Source of the DNA: a virus
Taxonomy: Duplodnaviria; Heunggongvirae; Uroviricota; Caudoviricetes
Reading direction: 5' to 3' (one strand)
IMG/VR virus record: IMGVR_UViG_3300028985_000084
Coordinates: 1-14,391 of that record
DNA: 14,391 nt
The notes below the pieces were generated by a model. It was not told the origin of the DNA. It ran no database searches and worked only from the letters and a program-made list of their open reading frames with translations. A program made the translations under genes and the position numbers. The first letter of the stretch is position 1, and each line of letters begins with the position of its first letter. Shown here piece after piece: positions 2,092-11,033 of the stretch.

Positions 2092-2925
2092 TCATTGATT
2101 CACCTCCTGCGGCGGTTCTGGCAGCGGCATCCAGTGGGTTACCTCCTTGAGATACAGGTCTTCGCCACCACCGTCATCCCAAGTGGGCTTGCCATCATTA
2201 AACCAGTCGCCATATACGCCGACCTGAGTGTTGGGGATGCTTGGTGGGTAGTTGTTTTTAAAGTCAGCAGCTAACACATAGCATTGTCGCTCTCCCATTT
2301 CTGGCATTCGCTCACTACAGCTTATCCAACTATCCGGAGTTACCGGAAGCGAGAACGGCAGCACATCTCTGTGAACAAGTTTTTGCTGTGACAGGTTATC
2401 CAGAACTTTCTGTACTGCTGCATCACCGAATACACCAAGCGCATCTGCCATAACTCCTACAACCTGATAAGCCTCAGCGCATACCGTGGATAAACCATCC
2501 GGAATTACCGGAGAGTTGCCGGGTTCTTTAATGTGCAAGCGAGGCTCACCATCTTTTGGCTCAGGCCACTGGCGCTCCATGTTGATCTTCAATTTATCTT
2601 CCATAGCAACGTTAATTTCAGCATCGCTGATGCCAGCACGGCGTTGTGCATCCCACAACAGAAACTGCATATCAGCCCACTCGCTAAGATCGTCTGGTTC
2701 GGCTGCGGCTTCCAGTGCCTCTTTTGAGAGGTGTTTCAGTGGACCAATGGGGCCAACGCAGCCAAATGTGGAGTCAGACCATTTGGCATGCTCGTGGCGA
2801 ATCTGTTCGCGTTCCAGTGATGCCAGTGCAATTCGTGCCAGTTCCATTTGTTCGCCACGGGTAAGCCCGTTTTCAAGCGGGTATTTAATGAACAATTCGA
2901 TACGTTCTTTAGTGATAGTGCTCAT
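2092..2925 (-). CDS. Two-domain phage protein: N-terminal MazG-like dATP/dGTP pyrophosphohydrolase-type domain (DUF550-like) fused to C-terminal DUF551-like domain
   Basis: 277-aa ORF; ATG at 2925 with AAGGAG 6 nt upstream. C-terminus (…WISCSERMPE…THWMPLPEPP) matches my recollection of DUF551 proteins; the N-terminal half resembles the prophage DUF550 family. Domain calls are from memory, not a search. Confidence 0.7.
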   Translation of the reverse strand: MSTITKERIELFIKYPLENGLTRGEQMELARIALASLEREQIRHEHAKWSDSTFGCVGPIGPLKHLSKEALEAAAEPDDLSEWADMQFLLWDAQRRAGISDAEINVAMEDKLKINMERQWPEPKDGEPRLHIKEPGNSPVIPDGLSTVCAEAYQVVGVMADALGVFGDAAVQKVLDNLSQQKLVHRDVLPFSLPVTPDSWISCSERMPEMGERQCYVLAADFKNNYPPSIPNTQVGVYGDWFNDGKPTWDDGGGEDLYLKEVTHWMPLPEPPQEVNQ

Positions 2926-3676: not shown

Positions 3677-4023
3677 TGGTTGCCTCCTTTGCGAATCTGT
3701 TCCGCCCATTCTTCTAGGGATTTCTCCGCATATTCACCGGACAGGCCATCAATCGGGTGTGGTTCATTAGCCAACTCTTCTTTCGCTGACAGAATCATGC
3801 GTGTAACGTCGAAAACTTCACGTAAAGACTTATTGATAAATCCGTGATTGAAAGCCGCAGCAAGACGGCTTGCGGTATAGTTAATACCCTCGTTGCGAGC
3901 CTCAGCACGTACTTCATCGAATTTACGCACCAGATACTCAGCATTTGTTTCATTCACTTTCAGATCTCGTGGTACACATTTCCCGCGAAGAAACCCTTCC
4001 ATTTCGAAAACATTCATGCGCAT
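3673..4023 (-). CDS. Hypothetical early-left-operon protein (YfdS-like by position and size)
   Basis: 116-aa ORF; ATG at 4023 with GGAG 8 nt upstream; a second ATG at 4017 overlaps the upstream stop (ATGA). Confidence 0.6.
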   Translation of the reverse strand: MRMNVFEMEGFLRGKCVPRDLKVNETNAEYLVRKFDEVRAEARNEGINYTASRLAAAFNHGFINKSLREVFDVTRMILSAKEELANEPHPIDGLSGEYAEKSLEEWAEQIRKGGNQ

Positions 4024-4550
4024 TTGCGTAACTCCGATAACTCGTTAAAACGTTCCATAAACATCCCGTAGGCATGGCCTGGCGACAGTGGAATCACTTT
4101 GAACATCTCTGTTGCCGGGATACCTTCCAGTACAGGCCAGAAAGAGCTATCATCAAGCCCGAGATCGCGGCGTTCGGTTGCCAGCATGATGAGATCGGCA
4201 TATTTCACGGGCGTGCTCATAACCGGGGGTAACCCGTATTTCTCACGGATTACGGCGTCTATTTTTTCTTCCATCCGTTTATAGTCAGGAAGAAGGCGTT
4301 TCAGTGGAGCGGGAATATCCTGGCAATACGCTTCTGTTGCATCATGCATTAACGCTTCAAAAGCAAATTCCTGCGGCACCAGCTGGCTGCAAAGCACCGC
4401 ATGTTGGGCGACACTGTAGAAGTGAGAAAGATGACCGGCAAAGCGGCAGATATTTGAAAGGGAAACCGCGATATCGTTAATCACGATGTCGTCTTTATTT
4501 ATCCTGTCATAATAAAAATGCTTCCCGGAAAAAGTTTTAATAAATGACAT
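4014..4550 (-). CDS. yfdR: HD-domain phosphohydrolase, 5'-deoxynucleotidase YfdR-like
   Basis: ORF track 4014..4577. Preferred start is the ATG at 4550 (MSFIKTFSGKHFYY…) with GGAG 7 nt upstream, giving 178 aa. HD signature H…HD…D present (…HAVLCSQLV…EALMHDATEAY…). Follows a 274-aa yfdQ-like gene as in CPS-53. Confidence 0.8.
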   Translation of the reverse strand: MSFIKTFSGKHFYYDRINKDDIVINDIAVSLSNICRFAGHLSHFYSVAQHAVLCSQLVPQEFAFEALMHDATEAYCQDIPAPLKRLLPDYKRMEEKIDAVIREKYGLPPVMSTPVKYADLIMLATERRDLGLDDSSFWPVLEGIPATEMFKVIPLSPGHAYGMFMERFNELSELRKCA

Positions 4551-4643
4551 TTTGTTCTCCACGTATATGCGCTGCACCGCGCTGAGTTTGGGTAAAAGGA
4601 AGCCCTCACCATCCGGTGATTATTGAGTTAATTACGTTTCCAT

Positions 4644-4677: not shown

Positions 4678-5502
4678 TCAGGCGGTGAAAGTACCAATAA
4701 AGGTTTCTACTTTGCTGTCTTTGAATTTCTCAACAAGCAGATCACGAAATTCGTTAGCCATATCTTCCTGCACCGCTTCCAGCTGAATAATGCGCATAAC
4801 CAGTACAGGACGATCGCCAGTGATAATGCTGAGGCGTAATTTAAACGGACGTTCTTTCAGACCTTCAAACGGAACGCATTTAAATTCAAATGTCACTGGC
4901 ATAATGTCTTTGGTCTTCGCTTCGACAGATTCCATCAGGGAGCGTTTGCCGCTGAAGTCATTGTCTTCAAAATCAGCGGTCTGGTTCGCTTCAATTGTGA
5001 TTTTACGGATCGCCGCAACCGCTTTGGTTGCCTGAATGGCGTCACCATTAGCATCAAAGCCCACAAGGTAGTCGGCCCAGTCTTCAATCCATTCTGCCAG
5101 TGACTTTTGGGAGTTACGCTCGCCATTAACAGACAACAGAGCAGAGAACGGTGCTGTCTTTTTCAGTTTGAGAGTGGCGGTGTTATCTGCGTGACCTGGT
5201 TCATCAATAGTACCCAGGTTAAGCACACTGACGGCACGCATATTATCGGCATCGATAAAGCAGCGGGTGCCTTCATCTGCAAGATCTTTAGAATAACGGG
5301 TAAAGTCATCGATGCTGGCAGTGGAAAGCGCACCACGGAAACGGAAGCGATTTAAATTAAATTTTTCCAGATCATGAATGCGGAAATTCTCAGGCAATGC
5401 CACAGCATCGGCACCAATCTTACTAATAATTTCATTAACACCCTGAGCAGAAATAAGGGCATGGATTTGATTAATTGCGGTTGCGTCTAAGTTCTGAGAC
5501 AT
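4678..5502 (-). CDS. yfdQ: YfdQ-like protein (DUF2303 family), function unknown
   Basis: 274-aa ORF; ATG at 5502 with GAGGA 6 nt upstream. Size and position between 120-aa and 178-aa HD genes match the CPS-53 yfdP-yfdQ-yfdR order. Confidence 0.75.
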
Positions 5503-5567
5503 AATAAGTCCTCACTATATAAAGATATTCAGTGATGAGATAAATAATCGGTTAATTAAGAACGATA

Positions 5568-5930
5568 TTAATGACCTGCTGCGCGGAGTTTTCCGTCAGG
5601 TTCACCGGCAAGAGTCAGTAATTGTCCCTGGTCTTCCTGCAGAATAGTCAGGCGACCACCTCGATTGACATACATCGGCGTTTCGGTGGTGTCTTCTTCG
5701 GAGATTTTCCCGCGGTTAGTCGGGCGAACATATGAGAGTTTGTGTTTGATTTTCACACGGTTCTCATCAAACGGTTCGATGTCCAGATTGACCGAGACTT
5801 TACCTTTGTTTTTCGTGTTCATCACACCGGAAGCGACTTCACTGAGAACTGCGCCGAGTTTGGTTTCAAATACGCCGCCGTCCAGTTCTACGATAAATAC
5901 CTGCACATCAGTACTGCGTACGCTAGCCAT
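5568..5930 (-). CDS. yfdP: YfdP-like small protein (120 aa), first gene of the leftward early cluster
   Basis: ORF track gives a 182-aa frame (5568..6116). The internal ATG at ~5930 (MASVRSTDVQ…) has GAGGAG 8 nt upstream and yields 120 aa; the 62-codon upstream extension has no SD. Confidence 0.6.
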   Translation of the reverse strand: MASVRSTDVQVFIVELDGGVFETKLGAVLSEVASGVMNTKNKGKVSVNLDIEPFDENRVKIKHKLSYVRPTNRGKISEEDTTETPMYVNRGGRLTILQEDQGQLLTLAGEPDGKLRAAGH

Positions 5931-5978
5931 TTTGCTGCTCCTCATCATACCGACCCTGCAAGGTCGGTTGGTTTCTCC

Positions 5979-6067
5979 ACAAAACAGAGAAGAACACCTG
6001 CGGTGACAGCCGCCCGGATGGATTGGGTTATGAGCCCGTCGTCCGGTGATGCTCTTCTCTGTTTTGT
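5979..6067. repeat. Perfect 15-bp inverted repeat (ACAAAACAGAGAAGA … TCTTCTCTGTTTTGT) separated by ~59 bp, in the leader upstream of the leftward cluster
   Basis: Read directly from the sequence; arms are exact reverse complements. A 15-bp perfect IR is very unlikely by chance in 14 kb. Confidence 0.8.
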
Positions 6068-6335
6068 AAAAAGAGCGGTACCAGCCGGAAGCAAGTGTAC
6101 AAACTGGTACCGCCAAAGCAGTGGCTGTTGTGGTGACCGGTGCTGATCTCCGGCTTGCGGTTATTTCAGACTCTCACGGGCGTTTAATTGCCCCGCCGAA
6201 CAGCTCTTTTCCGCAATAGCTGCAATGTCTTTCGCGCATCAGCCTGCGCATTCACCACAACGCTAAGGATTCTCTCTGGTTGAAAATACTTAGCTGTTAT
6301 GTGCCTGCTTTTAGCCACATCAGGCGAGGTGGACC

Positions 6336-6399
6336 TGGTTATTCCCCAACAACAAGGATTTGGTTATTATGTAACCCTCCCCAACAACGATAAGGATTT
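6336..6399 (+). repeat. Tandemly duplicated module TGGTTATT … CCCCAACAAC … AAGGATTT (two copies, second with short insertions)
   Basis: Direct repeat read from the sequence. Each copy ends in AAGGA followed by an ATG: copy 1 gives ATG-TAA (start-stop), copy 2 gives the ATG of mini-ORF P1. Confidence 0.7.
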
Positions 6400-6401
6400 A
6401 T

Positions 6402-6491
6402 ATGGATCTATGTGTAGATAAGTATGAGGAGAGGCATGTGCCGTTAAGACAAAAGCCTCCAGTTCCTCCAAAACCACCCAAGGAAAACTGA
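6402..6491 (+). CDS. Proline-rich mini-ORF P1 (29 aa, MDLCVDKYEERHVPLRQKPPVPPKPPKEN); possible leader peptide/uORF
   Basis: ATG with AAGGA 5 nt upstream; TGA stop 7 nt before the ATG of the downstream membrane-protein gene; paralogous to two further mini-ORFs downstream. Confidence 0.35.
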   Translation: MDLCVDKYEERHVPLRQKPPVPPKPPKEN

Positions 6492-6498
6492 GACTAAT

Positions 6499-6993
6499 AT
6501 GACCAGAGACGATTATAAATTTTATGTTCACTACTCTTATGTATTGGAGAAGATGAATTACACGTTGTTAACTCGCATTGATAAATTAATAACGTTGATG
6601 TTAATCGTTCTCGGTTTTTCAGTTTTCGCCCCGTACAGTAATTTATTTATTTTCGGTTTGTTTGTTGCCGTACTTTCGGTTCTTCAGTTGGTCTATCAGT
6701 TTGGCCAAGAGGCTGGAATGTCTAAAGAGCAAGCGAGGCATTACAAAAGACTGCTGATTGAGTCTGATACCCTTCCTGAAGATCAGTTGCAAGCTAGGTA
6801 TTTAAAAATCCAAGATACTGATAGTAATCCATGGAAATCACTTGAACGAGCGGCTTTCATTCGGGCCTGTATTTTTGCTGGTGTTCCAACTAAGTACGAT
6901 TTAACAACCAAAGAAAAATTTATAGCTTGGTGTGCGGGAGATCTACCTCTAGAGAATGAACTAACGGATATTAATGATGACCAACAAGCATAA
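6499..6993 (+). CDS. Small inner-membrane protein with two N-terminal TM helices and a ~95-aa soluble C-terminal domain; candidate superinfection-exclusion (SieB-like) or abortive-infection protein
   Basis: 164-aa ORF in an AT-rich segment. Hydrophobic stretches LITLMLIVLGFSVFAPY and LFIFGLFVAVLSVLQLVYQF. On the opposite strand to the early-left genes and convergent with the repressor, the position SieB-type genes occupy in lambdoid prophages. Functional call is positional inference only. Confidence 0.65.
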   Translation: MTRDDYKFYVHYSYVLEKMNYTLLTRIDKLITLMLIVLGFSVFAPYSNLFIFGLFVAVLSVLQLVYQFGQEAGMSKEQARHYKRLLIESDTLPEDQLQARYLKIQDTDSNPWKSLERAAFIRACIFAGVPTKYDLTTKEKFIAWCAGDLPLENELTDINDDQQA

Positions 6994-7048
6994 TCCAGTT
7001 CACGGACATGTACCTCCGAAGCCGAAACCACCGAAACCGAAGAAATGA
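6974..7048 (+). CDS. Proline-rich mini-ORF P3 (24 aa, MMTNKHNPVHGHVPPKPKPPKPKK), overlapping the 3' end of the membrane-protein gene
   Basis: Open frame from ATG ATG to TGA; no clear SD. Peptide shares the H-V-P-P-K-P-K-P-P motif with P1 and P2. Confidence 0.25.
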   Translation: MMTNKHNPVHGHVPPKPKPPKPKK

Positions 7049-7067
7049 GACATAATAGGATTGGATA

Positions 7068-7136
7068 ATGAGTCGACCAATAGAGCCTTTTCATATTCCA
7101 CCTCGTCCCAGGCCACCAGATCCAGGCCCAAAGTGA
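7068..7136 (+). CDS. Proline-rich mini-ORF P2 (22 aa, MSRPIEPFHIPPRPRPPDPGPK)
   Basis: ATG with AGGA ~7 nt upstream; followed ~25 nt later by an intrinsic terminator; paralogous to P1 and P3. Confidence 0.35.
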   Translation: MSRPIEPFHIPPRPRPPDPGPK

Positions 7137-7159
7137 GGGTTACTGATTTTTAAAGAGCG

Positions 7160-7184: not shown

Positions 7185-7298
7185 GTACTAACGAATCATC
7201 CTGGACTTCATATGCCCCAGGCGGCTACTTCGTGGGCGTCCTGCCTGTTCGTTATCTTTGATATAAAATCTAACTTAACTTAGTTTTAATGGCAAGAG

Positions 7299-7330
7299 AA
7301 AACACCAAACTTTTCTTAGTTCGGTGTTTT
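7299..7330 (-). terminator. Hairpin downstream of the repressor gene, candidate (bidirectional) terminator
   Basis: Inverted repeat AAAACACCAAAC … GTTCGGTGTTTT with 8-nt loop; on the minus strand the stem is followed by UUUUCUCUU; lies ~20-50 nt past the cI-type stop. Confidence 0.4.
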
Positions 7331-7349
7331 GGTTAGAGAAAAGGGGGGG

Positions 7350-7976
7350 CTAGAGTTCGTATTGAACTCCTTTGACTACACCAATGATGAGGCAATTACC
7401 ATTGATCGGGATGTTGGGGTACCGGGGATTTAATGGCACTAAAAACTTTTGAGGGCCATCGATAACTAATTTTTTTACTGTGGCTTCGTTTGTTCCATCA
7501 AGTCTAGCGATGACTATTTTTCCATGCCGGGGTTCTGCATCAGGATCTACAATCACTGTTGCGCCTTCTGGTATTGTTGGGAGGCCGTTAGGGTTAGTCA
7601 TGGAGTCGCCTTTAACCTCCAATGCAAATGAGTTATCACCAATCTTTAATGATGTATCTACCCACTTGTCTACTTCACTAAACACTTCTGCTGTCCTGCA
7701 CTCAGTAAACTGCCCAGCCTGAACCCACGAGATTACAGGAACTCTGCGCATGTTTGTGACGAGTTTGCCTTCAAACTCCGCACCATAAAGAATGTAATCT
7801 ATTGACGTATTGAAGAACTTCGCTAATTTTGAAAGTGCTTCCCCACCAGGGACATTGATGTCTTTCTCCCAGTACCCCACAGCAACGTCACTTACTCCAC
7901 AAAATTTACCCAATTCTTTCTGGGACGTTCTGGTAACTCTTCTCAGAGCTTTTATACGCTGACCAACCGTTTCCAT
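7350..7976 (-). CDS. cI: CI-type prophage repressor (N-terminal HTH, C-terminal S24 LexA-like autopeptidase domain)
   Basis: 208-aa ORF. N-terminal HTH (QKELGKFCGVSDVAVGYWE). C-terminal S24 signature including GDSM (catalytic Ser) and a downstream Lys. Divergent from a cro-like gene. Confidence 0.9.
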   Translation of the reverse strand: METVGQRIKALRRVTRTSQKELGKFCGVSDVAVGYWEKDINVPGGEALSKLAKFFNTSIDYILYGAEFEGKLVTNMRRVPVISWVQAGQFTECRTAEVFSEVDKWVDTSLKIGDNSFALEVKGDSMTNPNGLPTIPEGATVIVDPDAEPRHGKIVIARLDGTNEATVKKLVIDGPQKFLVPLNPRYPNIPINGNCLIIGVVKGVQYEL

Positions 7977-8073: not shown

Positions 8074-8274
8074 ATGACGACTGACGATATCGAAAGCTAC
8101 TTCGGCAGCATTGAGAAAGTTGCTGCTTTTTTCGGCATAACAACTGAAGCCGTTTATCAGTGGCGAAACCGTCCTGGCCAGTTAATTCCAAAAGGACGTG
8201 CAGCAGAGGCTGCATATAGAACTTGCGGACGGTTGCCATTTAAACCTGAGCTTTATGAAAAATCTAATGGATAA
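8074..8274 (+). CDS. cro: Cro-like HTH DNA-binding regulator
   Basis: 66-aa ORF; ATG at 8074 with GGAGG upstream; HTH segment IEKVAAFFGITTEAVYQW; divergent from the repressor. Confidence 0.8.
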   Translation: MTTDDIESYFGSIEKVAAFFGITTEAVYQWRNRPGQLIPKGRAAEAAYRTCGRLPFKPELYEKSNG

Positions 8275-9231: not shown

Positions 9232-9263
9232 GGGACGATCATGAGCAAACCAGTAATGATTGA
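9072..9263 (+). CDS. Hypothetical small phage protein (63 aa, DUF4222-like by recollection), TTG start
   Basis: TTG at 9072 preceded by AAGGAG with 9-nt spacer. Product (…[39 protein letters not shown]…) looks like a genuine globular small protein. Confidence 0.45.
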
Positions 9264-10095
9264 TTCTGCCATTCCGGGACGTTACACTGTTCAGGCACCT
9301 TATAAAGCGGGTGCCGGGATTGGCGTCCTGAAATTGTCAACGGCGATGTATGACGCGCCAGCGTCTTTTTTATCGTCCGCATTTGCTCACATCCAGATTA
9401 TGGTGGGCTGGGCGGGGGCACCGAAAGGTGCGCCGGTCTCCGTTGACGCCGGTTACGCCAACCCCGTCCAGTTCACCACCAGTGAAATTGGCGTTTCCGG
9501 TGGTGGAAGTTTTTCACTGTCAACGGAGGCTGCCATCATGGCTACGATCCCAGCCCTCACTCAACCTGAAATCACCATTGACAACGGCCAGGCCGTTACC
9601 ACTTCTTTGGCTGTTGCCAACTTCTTCTCCAAGCGTCACGACGATGTGCTGAAAAAGATCCGCACTCTGGATTGTTCCCCTGAGTTTTGTGCCCGCAATT
9701 TTGCGGAGACATCGATTTCGGTAAATCAACCGAACGGTGGTACACGCAAGCTCCTTTGCTATCAAATCACACGAGACGGTTTTGCGTTTCTTGCTATGGG
9801 TTTCACGGGTAAACGTGCTGCCCGGTTCAAAGAGGCATACATCAATGCCTTTAACCAGATGGAACAGGCGCTGATCGGAAAGGTTGATACTTCATGTGTC
9901 GCGCACAATGCCCACGTTGTTTACCTCTACATGGCTGAAATTCACCGCGTTTGGTTAGAACAACTTTATCCGATGCTGGTTTCAGTTCAGTCTCCGCTGG
10001 CTTCATCGCTCTACGACTACATCAACGATGGTGTATTCGTTGCCGGGCTGGTGGACTCGGAACTGAACGAAAAGCATAAGGAGGTGCGTAAGTGA
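9241..10095 (+). CDS. Rha-family phage regulatory protein with an unusual ~100-aa N-terminal extension
   Basis: 284-aa ORF. Residues ~105-200 (ITIDNGQAVTTSLAVANFFSKRHDDVLKKIRTL…) fit the Rha N-terminal domain. ATG at 9241 has AAGGGA upstream; an internal ATG at ~9538 has a strong GGAGG 8 nt upstream and would give a canonical ~186-aa Rha protein. Confidence 0.75.
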   Translation: MSKPVMIDSAIPGRYTVQAPYKAGAGIGVLKLSTAMYDAPASFLSSAFAHIQIMVGWAGAPKGAPVSVDAGYANPVQFTTSEIGVSGGGSFSLSTEAAIMATIPALTQPEITIDNGQAVTTSLAVANFFSKRHDDVLKKIRTLDCSPEFCARNFAETSISVNQPNGGTRKLLCYQITRDGFAFLAMGFTGKRAARFKEAYINAFNQMEQALIGKVDTSCVAHNAHVVYLYMAEIHRVWLEQLYPMLVSVQSPLASSLYDYINDGVFVAGLVDSELNEKHKEVRK

Positions 10096-11033
10096 GCACC
10101 AAATTAACCGGCTATGTATGGGATGGTTGCGCAGCGTCAGGCATGAAATTATCCAGTGTGGCAATTATGGCCCGTCTGGCTGATTTCAGTAATGACGAGG
10201 GTGTGTGCTGGCCATCAATTGAAACCATTGCCCGCCAGATTGGCGCGGGGATGAGTACCGTCAGAACGGCTATCGCACGGCTGGAAGCAGAAGGCTGGTT
10301 AACGCGTAAGGCGCGTCGCCAGGGTAACCGCAATGCGTCGAATGTTTATCAGCTTAACGTTGCGAAGCTTCAGGCTGCGGCATTTTCTCAACTGTCAGAT
10401 TCTGACCCGTCAAAATCTGACGCATCAAAATCTGACCCGTCAAAATTTGATGCGTCGAAATCTGGCAAAAAAGCGTGTTTTCACCCGTCAGAATCTGGCG
10501 GGGATCCGTCAGTAAAATCAAAACATGATCCGTCAGATAAAAAACCTTCTCGTCCGGACGCTTTGCAACCGGACACGCAGACGGCTGAACAGGATTTTTT
10601 AACTCGCCATCCTGATGCGGTTGTATTCAGCCCTAAAAAGCGCCAGTGGGGAACGCAGGATGATTTGACCTGCGCACAGTGGCTCTGGAAAAAAATCATC
10701 GCCCTGTACGAGCAGGCCGCCGAATGTGACGGCGAGGTGGTTCGTCCCAAAGAACCGAACTGGACAGCATGGGCAAACGAAATTCGCCTGATGTGTGTGC
10801 AGGATGGTCGTACTCACAAACAAATCTGCGAGATGTACAGCCGCGTCAGCCGTGATCCGTTCTGGTGCCGTAACGTGCTCAGCCCGTCGAAGTTGCGGGA
10901 AAAATGGGATGAGCTTTCCCTGCGCTTATCGCCGTCCGTCAGCACGCACACAGAAAAACGTGAAGACCCGTACTTCAAAGCCAGTTACGACAACGTGGAC
11001 TACAGCCAGATCCCGGCAGGATTCAGGGGGTGA
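10092..11033 (+). CDS. Replication initiator / replisome organiser (lambda O-like; N-terminal HTH, origin iterons inside the gene)
   Basis: 313-aa ORF; GTG start overlapping the upstream stop (GTGA) with AAGGAGG 8 nt upstream. N-terminal HTH (…CWPSIETIARQIGAGMSTVRTAIARLEAEGWL…). Internal 15-bp tandem repeats encode SKSDx pentapeptide repeats. Confidence 0.8.
   Translation: MSTKLTGYVWDGCAASGMKLSSVAIMARLADFSNDEGVCWPSIETIARQIGAGMSTVRTAIARLEAEGWLTRKARRQGNRNASNVYQLNVAKLQAAAFSQLSDSDPSKSDASKSDPSKFDASKSGKKACFHPSESGGDPSVKSKHDPSDKKPSRPDALQPDTQTAEQDFLTRHPDAVVFSPKKRQWGTQDDLTCAQWLWKKIIALYEQAAECDGEVVRPKEPNWTAWANEIRLMCVQDGRTHKQICEMYSRVSRDPFWCRNVLSPSKLREKWDELSLRLSPSVSTHTEKREDPYFKASYDNVDYSQIPAGFRG
10395..10510 (+). 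repeat. Origin-like iteron array: five contiguous 15-bp direct repeats (consensus TCAAAATCTGACNCR, ~10395-10469) plus two degenerate copies and an A-rich tract
   Basis: Read directly: TCAGATTCTGACCCG / TCAAAATCTGACGCA / TCAAAATCTGACCCG / TCAAAATTTGATGCG / TCGAAATCTGGCAAA. In-frame within the initiator gene, as lambda ori lies inside gene O. Confidence 0.7.

What the first reader, a model, noticed from the sequence alone, without database searches (positions are those of the whole stretch)
5979..6067. Perfect 15-bp inverted repeat with ~59-bp spacer in the leader of the leftward early operon
ACAAAACAGAGAAGA (5979-5993) and its exact reverse complement TCTTCTCTGTTTTGT (6053-6067) flank a GC-rich spacer containing further short self-complementary stretches. 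It lies in the untranslated region upstream of the yfdP-like gene, where a pL-type promoter and antitermination signals would be expected. It could be a long RNA stem-loop (RNase III site, attenuator, or cis-acting antitermination RNA analogous to HK022 put), a pair of operator half-sites for a dimeric regulator, or the terminal inverted repeats of an ~89-bp MITE-like insertion.
Basis: seen in the sequence. Interest (0 to 1): 0.5.

Follow-up and report, generated by a model that had tools for sequence, protein, structure and literature searches.

The report
tRNA-like structured RNA in prophage leader
The inverted repeat is the closing stem of a conserved, unannotated 89-nt folded RNA in the untranslated leader of a prophage early operon; one arm copies the anticodon arm of the initiator tRNA, and its function is unknown.

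Summary
The arms 5979-5993 and 6053-6067 are a perfect 15-nt inverted repeat, the longest in the window (0/300 shuffles reach 15 nt).

The repeat is the outer part of a 20-bp helix (P1) that closes a three-way junction on the minus (transcribed) strand. Arm P2 is a 33-nt arm whose tip GGG-CUCAUAA-CCC matches the E. coli tRNA-fMet anticodon stem-loop over 14/14 nt. Arm P3 is a variable hairpin. Compensatory changes support all the helices: 95.5% of cells are paired against 38-51% in slid controls.

The element is in 46% of complete E. coli genomes at 1-4 copies, and in prophages of at least 13 Enterobacterales genera. It always follows the terminator of an STnc100-like leader sRNA and precedes the first early-left gene, which varies. 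A short-stem version with an RCCA tail fills the last slot of tRNA gene arrays in Klebsiella phages.

It matches no Rfam family, is not called as a tRNA, and is not an HK022/HK639 put RNA. The evidence argues against an operator or a MITE.

Best reading: a tRNA-like RNA "cargo" held in a long processing stalk, probably cut by RNase III. The fold is shown; the processing and any trans role are inferred.

The parts
5979..6067 (-). The whole element, 89 nt: a three-way-junction RNA with helices P1, P2 and P3
   Evidence: The covariance model R1 scores 108 bits on the minus strand. The fold is, and the covariation.
6048..6067 (-). P1 5' strand, ACAAAACAGAGAAGAGCAUC.
   Evidence: 20 pairs, 95.8% of cells paired, 6 pairs with changes on both sides.
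5979..5998 (-). P1 3' strand, GGUGUUCUUCUCUGUUUUGU. It contains the other arm of the repeat.
   Evidence: The U.G pair at columns 19/96 is kept in 32/36 sequences and would be A.C on the other strand.
6014..6046 (-). P2: a 7-bp base (CCGGACG/CAUCCGG), an invariant asymmetric internal loop (AC / AAUC), a 3-bp tip and a 7-nt loop
   Evidence: the base helix covaries (GC/UA/AU at columns 10/38; AU/GC at columns 12/36). The inner 26 nt are nearly invariant.
6025..6038 (-). CGGGCUCAUAACCC, identical to the anticodon stem-loop of E. coli initiator tRNA-fMet (metZ)
   Evidence: Alignment with metZ of MG1655. With the 13-nt tip left free in the search pattern, 22 species gave GGGCUCAU + AA (17 species), UA (1) or UC (4) + CCC.
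6000..6013 (-). P3: a variable hairpin, GCGG-CUGUCA-CCGC here and 14 to about 45 nt in relatives
   Evidence: Pairs at columns 57/91 and 58/90 change on both sides.
6068..6113 (-). Intrinsic terminator directly upstream: GCGGUACCAG, 19-nt loop, CUGGUACCGC, then UCUUUUU. It is the 3' end of an STnc100-like leader sRNA.
   Evidence: Inverted repeat I6. A run of 5 or more T lies directly upstream of P1 in 131/134 leader-type copies. The terminal hairpin of Rfam STnc100 aligns to this hairpin in L177.
6114..6310 (-). Upstream structured leader domain closed by GUUGUGGUGA/UCACCACAAC (6261-6252 / 6136-6127). It is STnc100-like and its extent is tentative.
   Evidence: Inverted repeat I7. Rfam RF02076 gives sub-threshold matches at the same position in ST64B (35 bits) and L177 (41.9 bits, end-to-end). 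It is not detected in the window itself.
5970..5978 (-). Conserved linker GGAGAAACC. GGAGA can pair with the terminator U-tract and extend P1 by 5 pairs, 3 of them G.U.
   Evidence: Folds. GGAGA is invariant.
5949..5968 (-). P4: a hairpin, ACCGACC-UUGCAG-GGUCGGU, between the element and the Shine-Dalgarno sequence
   Evidence: The stem differs between lineages while pairing and the (U/G)GCAG loop are kept.
5928..5943 (-). Shine-Dalgarno GAGGAG (5943-5938) and the ATG (5930-5928) of yfdP
   Evidence: Sequence. RefSeq CDS.
5568..5930 (-). The yfdP-family gene (120 aa), first gene of the early-left operon in this prophage
   Evidence: RefSeq annotation of the identical prophage.
7267..7295 (-). 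Candidate pL promoter (TTGCCA-17-TAGATT), which would drive the leader transcript
   Evidence: The equivalent position has promoter-like sequence in LLS, phiNP and ST64B.

Best explanation
The repeat is the closing helix of a conserved, non-coding, structured RNA domain in the leftward (pL) early transcript of a lambdoid prophage. The domain lies between the terminator of an STnc100-like leader sRNA and the first ORF.

Shown: the domain folds as a three-way junction. P1 is 20 bp. P2 is an arm whose tip copies the initiator-tRNA anticodon stem-loop. P3 is a variable hairpin. The same P2/P3 core, with only a 6-bp P1 and an RCCA tail, occupies a tRNA slot in the tRNA arrays of Klebsiella phages.

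Inferred: the conserved functional unit is the tRNA-like core, the "cargo". In the window's version the long P1 acts as a processing stalk. The model has three steps. First, antiterminated RNA polymerase reads through the terminator and P1 forms. Second, a double-strand-specific nuclease, most likely RNase III, cuts P1. Third, this cut separates the yfdP-operon mRNA from the long upstream leader and leaves the P4 hairpin near the new 5' end. The same cut releases a small, stable tRNA-like RNA of about 60-70 nt. This parallels RNase P and 3' trimming releasing the short-stem version from tRNA arrays.

What the released RNA binds is not known.
For: Structure and strand.
- MFE is -51.2 kcal/mol with z = -7.0.
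- In 36 distinct sequences 95.5% of cells are paired, against 38-51% when partners are slid. Ten pairs change on both sides, and 0/500 shuffles reach the observed score.
- Leader and tRNA-array versions together give 95.4% paired.
- A U.G pair conserved in 32/36 sequences shows that the minus strand is the one that folds.

Conservation.
- The core is found in at least 119 IMG/VR contigs and in 22 species of at least 13 Enterobacterales genera.
- It is in 2482/5426 complete E. coli genomes at 1-4 copies each.
- In 80 loci sampled through the YfdP protein, all 80 carry it and 77 have an identical core.

Independence from the downstream gene.
- YfdP, YfdR-like, RdgC-like and Xis-like genes all occur as the first gene.

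tRNA likeness.
- The tip is identical over 14 nt to the metZ anticodon stem-loop.
- The tRNA-array version starts 8-9 nt after the preceding tRNA. That is the spacing seen between tRNAs in the same arrays.
- Its P1 is followed by R-CCA in all 11 distinct copies, while the sequence beyond that diverges.

Stalk idea.
- P1-like arms recur around other cargo. In phiNP they enclose T-arm-like hairpins, and a similar stem lies downstream of the array version.
- P1 has the length of known RNase III substrates. That comparison rests on established knowledge of the lambda N leader, T7 R1.1 and rrn stalks.
Against: No processing data exist for this locus, and K-12 lacks the element, so published K-12 maps do not help. 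RNase III cleavage is inferred only from helix length.

The window's version has no CCA tail. ARAGORN, including its mitochondrial modes, and the Rfam tRNA model do not recognise either version. Loop position 37 is U in some lineages (CUCAUUA, CUCAUUC), which no tRNA tolerates. Strict anticodon-arm mimicry is therefore not universal.

The core was found with patterns that fix parts of it, so its invariance is partly due to ascertainment. The YfdP-anchored sample is unbiased but contains only close relatives.

A purely cis role in stability or translation of the first gene explains the leader version equally well.
Confidence: 0.4

Rival explanations
1. The element is purely a cis-acting processing and stability element. 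The long hairpin is an RNase III site, or a 5' protective structure, that tunes stability and translation of the first early-left gene, as the RNase III hairpin does in the lambda N leader. The inner arms are structural only and no RNA is released to act in trans.
For: The helix is 20-25 bp and sits 48 nt upstream of the start codon, in a pL leader. It always precedes the first ORF of the operon. A conserved hairpin and the Shine-Dalgarno sequence follow it.
Against: This does not explain why 26 inner nucleotides are nearly invariant while P1 and P3 change freely. It also does not explain why the same core occurs with a 6-bp stem, too short for RNase III, in tRNA arrays far from any start codon.
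Confidence: 0.22
2. The element is a cis-acting RNA that modifies RNA polymerase, a put- or EAR-like processive antiterminator or anti-pausing element, and acts on terminators further down the early-left operon.
For: These phages have no N homologue. A 2025 paper on phage LLS suggests put-type antitermination for this group (PMC12315714). The element is a conserved structured RNA near the start of both an early and a late antiterminated operon.
Against: The R1 model finds nothing in HK022 or HK639, including their annotated or known put regions. The fold is a three-way junction rather than two tandem stem-loops. The element lies downstream of the first terminator, 1.2 kb from pL. A segment right after pL (about 7258-7190) is the better put-like candidate.
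Confidence: 0.1
3. The element is a C4-like antisense regulator. It would be excised from the leader, and its loops would pair with the ribosome-binding region of the downstream gene to control translation.
For: It has the same overall architecture as C4 RNA, a long closing stem around two hairpins in an operon leader (the C4 consensus structure is shown). The loop CUCAU is complementary to AUGAG, which lies at the start codon or the Shine-Dalgarno sequence in YfdP-type leaders.
Against: There is no Rfam C4-clan match at the element even at E = 10, whereas the true C4 in this window scores 81 bits. The complementarity is only 5 nt. It is absent from Kosakonia YfdP leaders and from RdgC-, YfdR- and Xis-type leaders. 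Loop variants are not matched by changes in the proposed target.
Confidence: 0.08
4. The element is a decaying relic of a phage tRNA gene, an ileZ-like or Met CAU tRNA, with no present function.
For: It has an anticodon-arm identity, it sits in tRNA arrays, and the Klebsiella version has an acceptor-like stem with RCCA.
Against: It is strongly conserved across genera, with compensatory changes in three helices. In E. coli prophages 77/80 copies have an identical core, while flanking sequence varies. A pseudogene would drift.
Confidence: 0.05
5. The feature acts at the DNA level, as operator half-sites for a dimeric regulator or as the terminal inverted repeats of a MITE-like insertion.
For: It has perfect 15-bp arms and a unit of about 89 bp.
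Against: The arms lie 59 to 84 bp apart. Conserved U.G pairs would be A.C on the other strand. The inner hairpins covary. The arms are unlike the operator-like words at pL/pR. There are 1-4 copies per genome, always at the same prophage position. Occupancy is 80/80 and no empty site was found. The flanks CTTTTT|AC..GT|GGAGAA are not a duplication.
Confidence: 0.03

Closest known systems
tRNA, specifically the anticodon arm of initiator tRNA-fMet, and D-arm-lacking tRNA-like RNAs
   Same: The tip of P2 is identical over 14 nt to the metZ anticodon stem-loop: three G-C pairs and the loop CUCAUAA. The Klebsiella-phage version sits in a tRNA slot. It has a 6-bp acceptor-like stem followed by RCCA. 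Its P1+P3 stack of about 12 bp is the length of an acceptor/T minihelix.
   Different: There is no D arm and no T-loop consensus. Neither ARAGORN nor the Rfam tRNA model calls it. The window's version has a 20-bp closing helix and no CCA. Some lineages have U at loop position 37.
RNase III processing stems: the lambda N-leader hairpin, T7 R1.1-type sites, and the rrn 16S/23S stalks
   Same: A long, nearly perfect helix of 20-25 bp lies in an untranslated leader just upstream of the first gene of a phage early operon. Like the rrn stalks, it is formed by sequences that flank a structured RNA.
   Different: Cleavage has not been shown. The helix encloses a strongly conserved three-way junction, which the lambda and T7 sites lack.
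C4 antisense RNA of P1/P7 (Rfam RF01695) and phi80 M3 RNA, which are phage small RNAs matured by RNase P
   Same: A long closing stem encloses two hairpins in the leader of an operon. The array version has an RCCA end, as RNase P substrates do.
   Different: There is no model match. No convincing target complementarity was found. A genuine C4 lies elsewhere in the same window (9396-9483).
HK022 / HK639 put antiterminator RNAs
   Same: A cis-encoded structured RNA in the pL operon of N-less lambdoid phages.
   Different: The sequence and fold differ, and the element lies after the first terminator. No R1 match was found in either phage.
STnc100 / PasD prophage sRNAs (Rfam RF02076)
   Same: This is the neighbour of the element. 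The STnc100-like domain and its terminator end exactly where the element begins. Both kinds of RNA occur in early and late phage leaders.
   Different: The element lies outside the STnc100 model and has no similarity to it.

Membership tests
tRNA (Rfam RF00005 / ARAGORN) | Cloverleaf with D arm and T arm, recognised by tRNA gene finders | tested here: not met
   ARAGORN finds no gene in the window. It also finds none in 97 element copies with standard, relaxed or mitochondrial settings, apart from 3 spurious calls. The Rfam tRNA model does not match the Klebsiella version even at E = 10.
tRNA (Rfam RF00005 / ARAGORN) | Anticodon arm: 7-nt loop with U33 and a purine at position 37 | tested here: inconclusive
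   The loop is CUCAUAA in most copies, identical to tRNA-fMet. It is CUCAUUA or CUCAUUC in ST64B, Klebsiella and Atlantibacter lineages, which places U at position 37.
tRNA (Rfam RF00005 / ARAGORN) | Acceptor stem followed by a discriminator base and CCA | tested here: not met
   In the window's version P1 is followed by GGAGAAAC. The feature is met only in the Klebsiella tRNA-array version, in all 11 distinct copies.
HK022-type put RNA | Sequence and structure similar to putL/putR: two tandem stem-loops of about 70 nt | tested here: not met
   R1 gives no significant match in the HK022 immunity region with filters off. It gives none in HK639, whose putL is annotated. The element is a three-way junction.
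HK022-type put RNA | Lies between the early promoter and the terminators it suppresses | tested here: not met
   The element lies about 1.2 kb from the pL candidate and directly downstream of a terminator.
HK022-type put RNA | Antitermination that depends on the beta' zinc-binding domain | not testable with these tools
   This needs read-through assays and rpoC mutants.
C4 antisense RNA clan (CL00128) | Match to the clan's covariance models | tested here: not met
   No match at 5500-6600 at E up to 10. The genuine C4 at 9396-9483 scores 81.4 bits.
C4 antisense RNA clan (CL00128) | Loops complementary to the ribosome-binding region downstream in the same mRNA | tested here: inconclusive
   The only match is the 5-nt CUCAU/AUGAG pairing in YfdP-type leaders. 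It is absent with other first genes.
RNase III processing site | Double-stranded helix of about two turns (about 20 bp or more) | tested here: met
   P1 has 20 pairs, up to 25 with the U-tract/GGAGA extension, and its length is kept across genera.
RNase III processing site | Cleavage in vivo that depends on rnc | not testable with these tools
   There are no data. K-12 lacks the element.
MITE / repetitive extragenic element | Many dispersed copies, target-site duplication, and presence/absence polymorphism | tested here: not met
   There are 1-4 copies per genome in 2482 genomes, median 1, and 30 of 72,556 plasmids carry it. Occupancy upstream of yfdP is 80/80. The flanks are not duplicated.
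Operator for a dimeric DNA-binding regulator | Two half-sites at a fixed short spacing that resemble the phage's other operators | tested here: not met
   The spacing varies from 59 to 84 bp. The arms are unlike the CTAAG..CTTAG words at pL and pR. G.U asymmetry is present.
Intrinsic terminator / attenuator | G+C-rich hairpin followed directly by a U-tract | tested here: not met
   P1 is followed by GGAGAAAC. The scan calls a terminator-type hairpin only upstream, at 6113-6068 by eye and, and not at the element.
STnc100 (RF02076) | Covered by the family model | tested here: not met
   In L177 the model aligns end-to-end and stops at the U-tract, 2 nt before P1.

The most novel reading that the evidence does not exclude
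Lambdoid phages of Enterobacterales encode a D-arm-less, tRNA-shaped small RNA that carries the initiator-tRNA anticodon arm. It would be excised either from the early-left leader, through a long RNase III stalk, or from late tRNA arrays, through RNase P. It would be made only once antitermination has begun. It would then act in trans as a decoy or competitor for factors that read the tRNA-fMet anticodon arm. Examples are VapC-type toxins, which cleave tRNA-fMet in the anticodon stem-loop in Salmonella and Shigella (reviewed in PMC7180214), MetRS, or the 30S P site. The effect would be to protect or reprogram translation initiation during lytic growth.
Probability: 0.12. Interest if true: 0.85.

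Novelty: new variant of a known kind. Interest (0 to 1): 0.6.

Why it matters
Nearly half of complete E. coli genomes carry this element, and it is unannotated or covered by spurious "hypothetical protein" calls. It is a covariation-supported RNA fold that matches no Rfam family.

It joins two topics usually treated apart. One is the long untranslated leaders of N-less lambdoid phages, whose early antitermination and processing are not understood. The other is phage tRNA arrays, now studied as counter-defence.

If the core is released as a tRNA-like RNA, it would be a new class of phage small RNA and a directly testable candidate for tRNA mimicry. If it is only a processing site, it still defines the 5' end and control region of a very common prophage operon (yfdPQRS). 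It would also improve annotation.

Tried and rejected
- Rfam at the gathering threshold and at E up to 10 found nothing at the element. The only matches were chance-level hammerhead and hairpin-ribozyme fragments next to it.
- The hammerhead idea was dropped. The CUGAUGA and GAAAC words are present, but stem III is missing, the score is 15 bits against a threshold of 37, and the words are not conserved.
- No tRNA gene was called by ARAGORN or by the Rfam tRNA model.
- There is no HK022 or HK639 put similarity.
- No N-like small basic ORF lies between pL and the element in LLS. The 103-aa minus-strand ORF at 6783-7094 has no credible family.
- The boxA likeness of CGCUCUUUUUACAA, at the junction of terminator and P1, was rejected because other lineages have CCGCCCUUUUU or CGUCCUUUUU there.
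- An alternative pairing of the terminator's 3' half with P1/P2 (inverted repeat I2) is not conserved in other lineages.
- Loop-to-RBS antisense pairing occurs only in YfdP-type leaders.
- K-12 was checked as a source of published transcript maps, but CPS-53 has lost the element.
- Literature searches (yfdP, ST64B sRNAs, STnc100, Pas sRNAs, initiator-tRNA mimics) found no description of the element.
- The King 2011 paper on HK639 put RNAs is not held.
- MFE folding of the pL-proximal put-like segment was not significant.

Full report
**1. The observation**

The two 15-nt arms are at the stated coordinates, 5979-5993 and 6053-6067, and are exact reverse complements separated by 59 nt.
- This is the longest perfect inverted repeat with a spacer of 100 nt or less in the window. 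None of 300 dinucleotide-preserving shuffles produced an arm of 15 nt or more.
- Read as the minus strand, which is the strand of the downstream genes, 5970-6075 folds at -51.2 kcal/mol. Shuffles average -26.1 kcal/mol (z = -7.0).

**2. Context**

An identical prophage in RefSeq, integrated next to yecE, gives the gene map.

| Feature | Window coordinates | Strand |
|---|---|---|
| int | 1-1314 | - |
| yfdR | 4014-4577 | - |
| yfdQ | 4678-5502 | - |
| yfdP | 5568-5930 | - |
| 164-aa ORF | 6499-6993 | + |
| CI-type repressor (HTH + S24) | 7350-7976 | - |
| cro | 8074-8274 | + |

- xis and further leftward genes lie between int and yfdR.
- The repeat lies 48 nt upstream of the yfdP ATG, in untranslated sequence.
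- The only sigma-70-type candidate for pL is at 7295-7267. The leader is therefore about 1.3 kb long in this prophage.
- Directly upstream of the repeat, on the minus strand, is an intrinsic terminator. It consists of GCGGUACCAG, a 19-nt loop, CUGGUACCGC and UCUUUUU (6113-6068).

**3. Anatomy**

The repeat is the outer three quarters of a 20-bp helix, P1, that closes a three-way junction.
- P2 (6046-6014) is a 33-nt arm. It has a 7-bp base, an asymmetric internal loop (AC opposite AAUC), three G-C pairs and the 7-nt loop CUCAUAA.
- P3 (6013-6000) is a short hairpin.
- Downstream follow the invariant linker GGAGA(AAC), a small hairpin P4 (5968-5949), the Shine-Dalgarno GAGGAG and the ATG.

**4. 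Relatives and covariation**

BLAST of the leader found the same arrangement upstream of yfdP homologues in several phages. These are mEp460, SfV, SfIV, cdtI and Stx2a/2c phages, Salmonella ST64B, Citrobacter phiNP, Escherichia phage LLS and Klebsiella Kp4866-6.

An exact-pattern scan with the P2 core returned at least 119 IMG/VR contigs.

On 36 distinct leader-type sequences (alignment A4), the three-way-junction structure gave the following:
- 95.5% of cells are paired, against 38-51% when the partners are slid by 1-3 columns.
- Ten pairs change on both sides, for example CG/AU at columns 4/111, GC/CG at 9/106 and GC/AU at 26/50.
- Zero of 500 shuffles reach the observed covariation score.
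- A U.G pair is kept in 32 of 36 sequences. It would be A.C on the other strand, so the leftward transcript is the strand that folds.

P3 ranges from 14 to about 45 nt. That range is hard to reconcile with a protein site that spans both arms on DNA.

**5. Distribution and copy number**

- The 89-nt unit is present in 2482 of 5426 complete E. coli genomes, at 1-4 copies (median 1). Nearly all copies are chromosomal and 95% identical or better.
- It is in only 30 of 72,556 plasmids.
- A scan of one genome per species left the 13-nt tip of P2 free. It found the element in 22 species: Escherichia, Shigella, Citrobacter, Enterobacter, Kosakonia, Leclercia, Atlantibacter, Buttiauxella, Pseudescherichia, Pseudocitrobacter, Klebsiella, Mixta and Erwinia. 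One hit was a MAG labelled Geobacteraceae, which I take to be mis-binned.
- In those 22 the tip is GGGCUCAU followed by AA (17 species), UA (1) or UC (4), then CCC.
- In 80 loci retrieved through the YfdP protein rather than through the RNA, all carry the element at the same distance from the ATG. Of these, 77 have an identical core and 3 have single-base changes. No empty site was seen.
- The first gene after the element is not always yfdP. YfdR-like, RdgC-like and Xis/AlpA-like genes also occur. In contrast, a run of five or more T directly precedes P1 in 131 of 134 copies.

The element therefore belongs to the leader, not to a particular gene.

**6. What lies upstream**

The upstream terminator is the 3' end of an STnc100-like RNA.
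- In one E. coli prophage leader, the Rfam model RF02076 aligns end-to-end (positions 1-206, 41.9 bits, threshold 47). Its terminal hairpin falls on this terminator and its last positions on UUUUUACA.
- ST64B gives 35 bits at the same place.
- The window's own copy is too diverged for the model. It keeps the closing stem GUUGUGGUGA/UCACCACAAC at 6261-6252 and 6136-6127.
- STnc100 is a known Hfq-associated prophage sRNA, related to PasD (bioRxiv 10.64898/2026.05.13.724894).

**7. The tRNA connection**

The weakest BLAST hits fell next to annotated tRNA genes in Klebsiella phages. In GZ7, Chronis and about ten IMG/VR contigs the same P2 core sits between Q and the lysis genes, as the last unit of an array of one to four tRNA genes.
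- It is flanked by a different P2 base (CCUGAUG/CAUCAGG), a different P3 and a P1 of only 6 bp (GGCCUG/CAGGCC).
- The unit starts 8-9 nt after the preceding tRNA, the same spacing as between the tRNAs.
- Its P1 is followed by R-CCA in all 11 distinct copies, although the sequence beyond that diverges.
- The covariance model built from leader-type sequences finds these copies at 36-42 bits.
- A joint alignment of both types is 95.4% paired, against 30-49% in slid controls.

The tip of P2 is identical over 14 nt (CGGGCUCAUAACCC) to the anticodon stem-loop of metZ, the initiator tRNA of MG1655.

Nevertheless neither version is a tRNA by any gene finder or model. There is no D arm and no T-loop consensus. 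Some lineages have U at loop position 37. I therefore call it tRNA-like and do not file it as a tRNA.

**8. The long stem as a module**

The R1 model also gave weak matches in which only the P1 arms align.
- In phiNP, Kp4866-6 and two genome loci there is a second long stem about 230-390 nt upstream in the same leader. Its arms are ACACAACGAUGAGAGCAUUG and CAGUGCUCUCUUCGUUGUGG.
- In phiNP this stem encloses two T-arm-like hairpins with UUCGAUU and UUCAAUU loops.
- In two Klebsiella-type loci a similar stem lies about 75-90 nt downstream of the tRNA-array version.

P1-like stems thus recur around different structured "cargo". That is the pattern expected of a processing stalk. I take the comparison from established knowledge of the rrn RNase III stalks and the lambda N-leader site.

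**9. Mechanism**

Shown:
- The element is a conserved, strand-specific RNA fold.
- Its core is shared between an early leader and late tRNA arrays.
- It lies downstream of the first terminator in both operons, so it is transcribed only by polymerase that has read through.

Inferred: the conserved unit is the tRNA-like core.
- In the array version it would be matured like a tRNA, with RNase P at the 5' end and trimming to CCA at the 3' end.
- In the window's version the 20-25 bp P1 would be cut by RNase III. That cut would free the core and also detach the yfdP-operon mRNA from its long structured leader.

I put 0.4 on this combined model. Of that, I am about 85% sure that it is a functional RNA structure on the minus strand, and much less sure about the nuclease and the release. 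The partner of the invariant arm is unknown. The rivals are listed with their evidence in the Rival explanations section.

**10. Known families**

There is no Rfam match. The element is not put, not C4, not STnc100 and not a tRNA. I found no description in the literature searched. [quoted passage not shown]

**11. Verdict**

The feature is real and it is an RNA structure. It is very common and, as far as I can tell, undescribed. I classify it as a new variant of known kinds, namely tRNA-like RNAs and phage leader processing structures. It is moderately to highly interesting because of the initiator-tRNA arm and the link to tRNA arrays. Its function remains inferred.

Noticed in passing
window 9295-9371 (+) and 9396-9483 (+): Rfam matches above threshold to isrK (62 bits) and C4 antisense RNA (81 bits). 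Both lie inside the RefSeq-annotated Rha-family CDS (9241-10098), so the start of that CDS is probably annotated too far upstream.
   Followed up: no
window about 7190-7258 (-), just downstream of the pL candidate at 7267-7295: This segment is conserved right after pL in phiNP and ST64B. It loosely resembles HK022/HK639 putL, sharing CGAAC.GGC and CAGGAUGA words. It is a better put-type candidate than the inverted repeat. MFE folding was not significant.
   Followed up: partly
window 6114-6310 (-): An STnc100-like structured domain is closed by GUUGUGGUGA/UCACCACAAC and ends in the terminator at 6113-6068. Rfam RF02076 matches the homologous position in L177 (41.9 bits) and ST64B (35 bits), but not in the window itself.
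   Followed up: partly
window 6499-6993 (+): A 164-aa ORF with a hydrophobic N-terminal half and no Pfam match. It is convergent with pL transcription and absent from many related prophages, so it is a moron inserted into the leader.
   Followed up: no
window about 7150-7159 (-) and 7125-7141 (+): A boxA-like CGCUCUUUAA is followed by a weak hairpin on the leftward strand. On the plus strand the same bases form a terminator-like site for the moron.
   Followed up: no
window 6257-6271, 6346-6360, 6384-6398: Three direct repeats ACAACGnTAAGGATT in the part of the leader shared with phages Kati and SfIV.
   Followed up: no
window 5949-5968 (-); P3 of many relatives; L134, L148 and L020 leaders: G+C-rich hairpins with the loop (U/G)GCAG recur. 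They appear as P3 in many variants, between the element and the Shine-Dalgarno sequence, and before the Shine-Dalgarno sequences of yfdR-type first genes. They may be a shared protein-binding hairpin.
   Followed up: partly
L007 (phiNP) 2788-2916 (-); also Kp4866-6, L144 and L151: A second long stem with P1-like arms. In phiNP it encloses two T-arm-like hairpins (GUCCGG-UUCGAUU-CCAGAC followed by ACCA, and GUCCG-UUCAAUU-CGGAC); the Kp4866-6 leader has the same hairpins.
   Followed up: partly
window 5945-5980 (-): An 11-codon ORF (GUG GAG AAA ... UGA) starts in the last bases of P1. The (A/G)UG-GAG-AA start is conserved in most but not all variants, and no Shine-Dalgarno sequence precedes it.
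   Followed up: no
L131 (E. coli K-12 CPS-53) 7248-7604: K-12 keeps yfdP with its Shine-Dalgarno sequence, but the whole structured leader has been replaced by a replication-gene remnant with GATTTTGACG repeats.
   Followed up: yes
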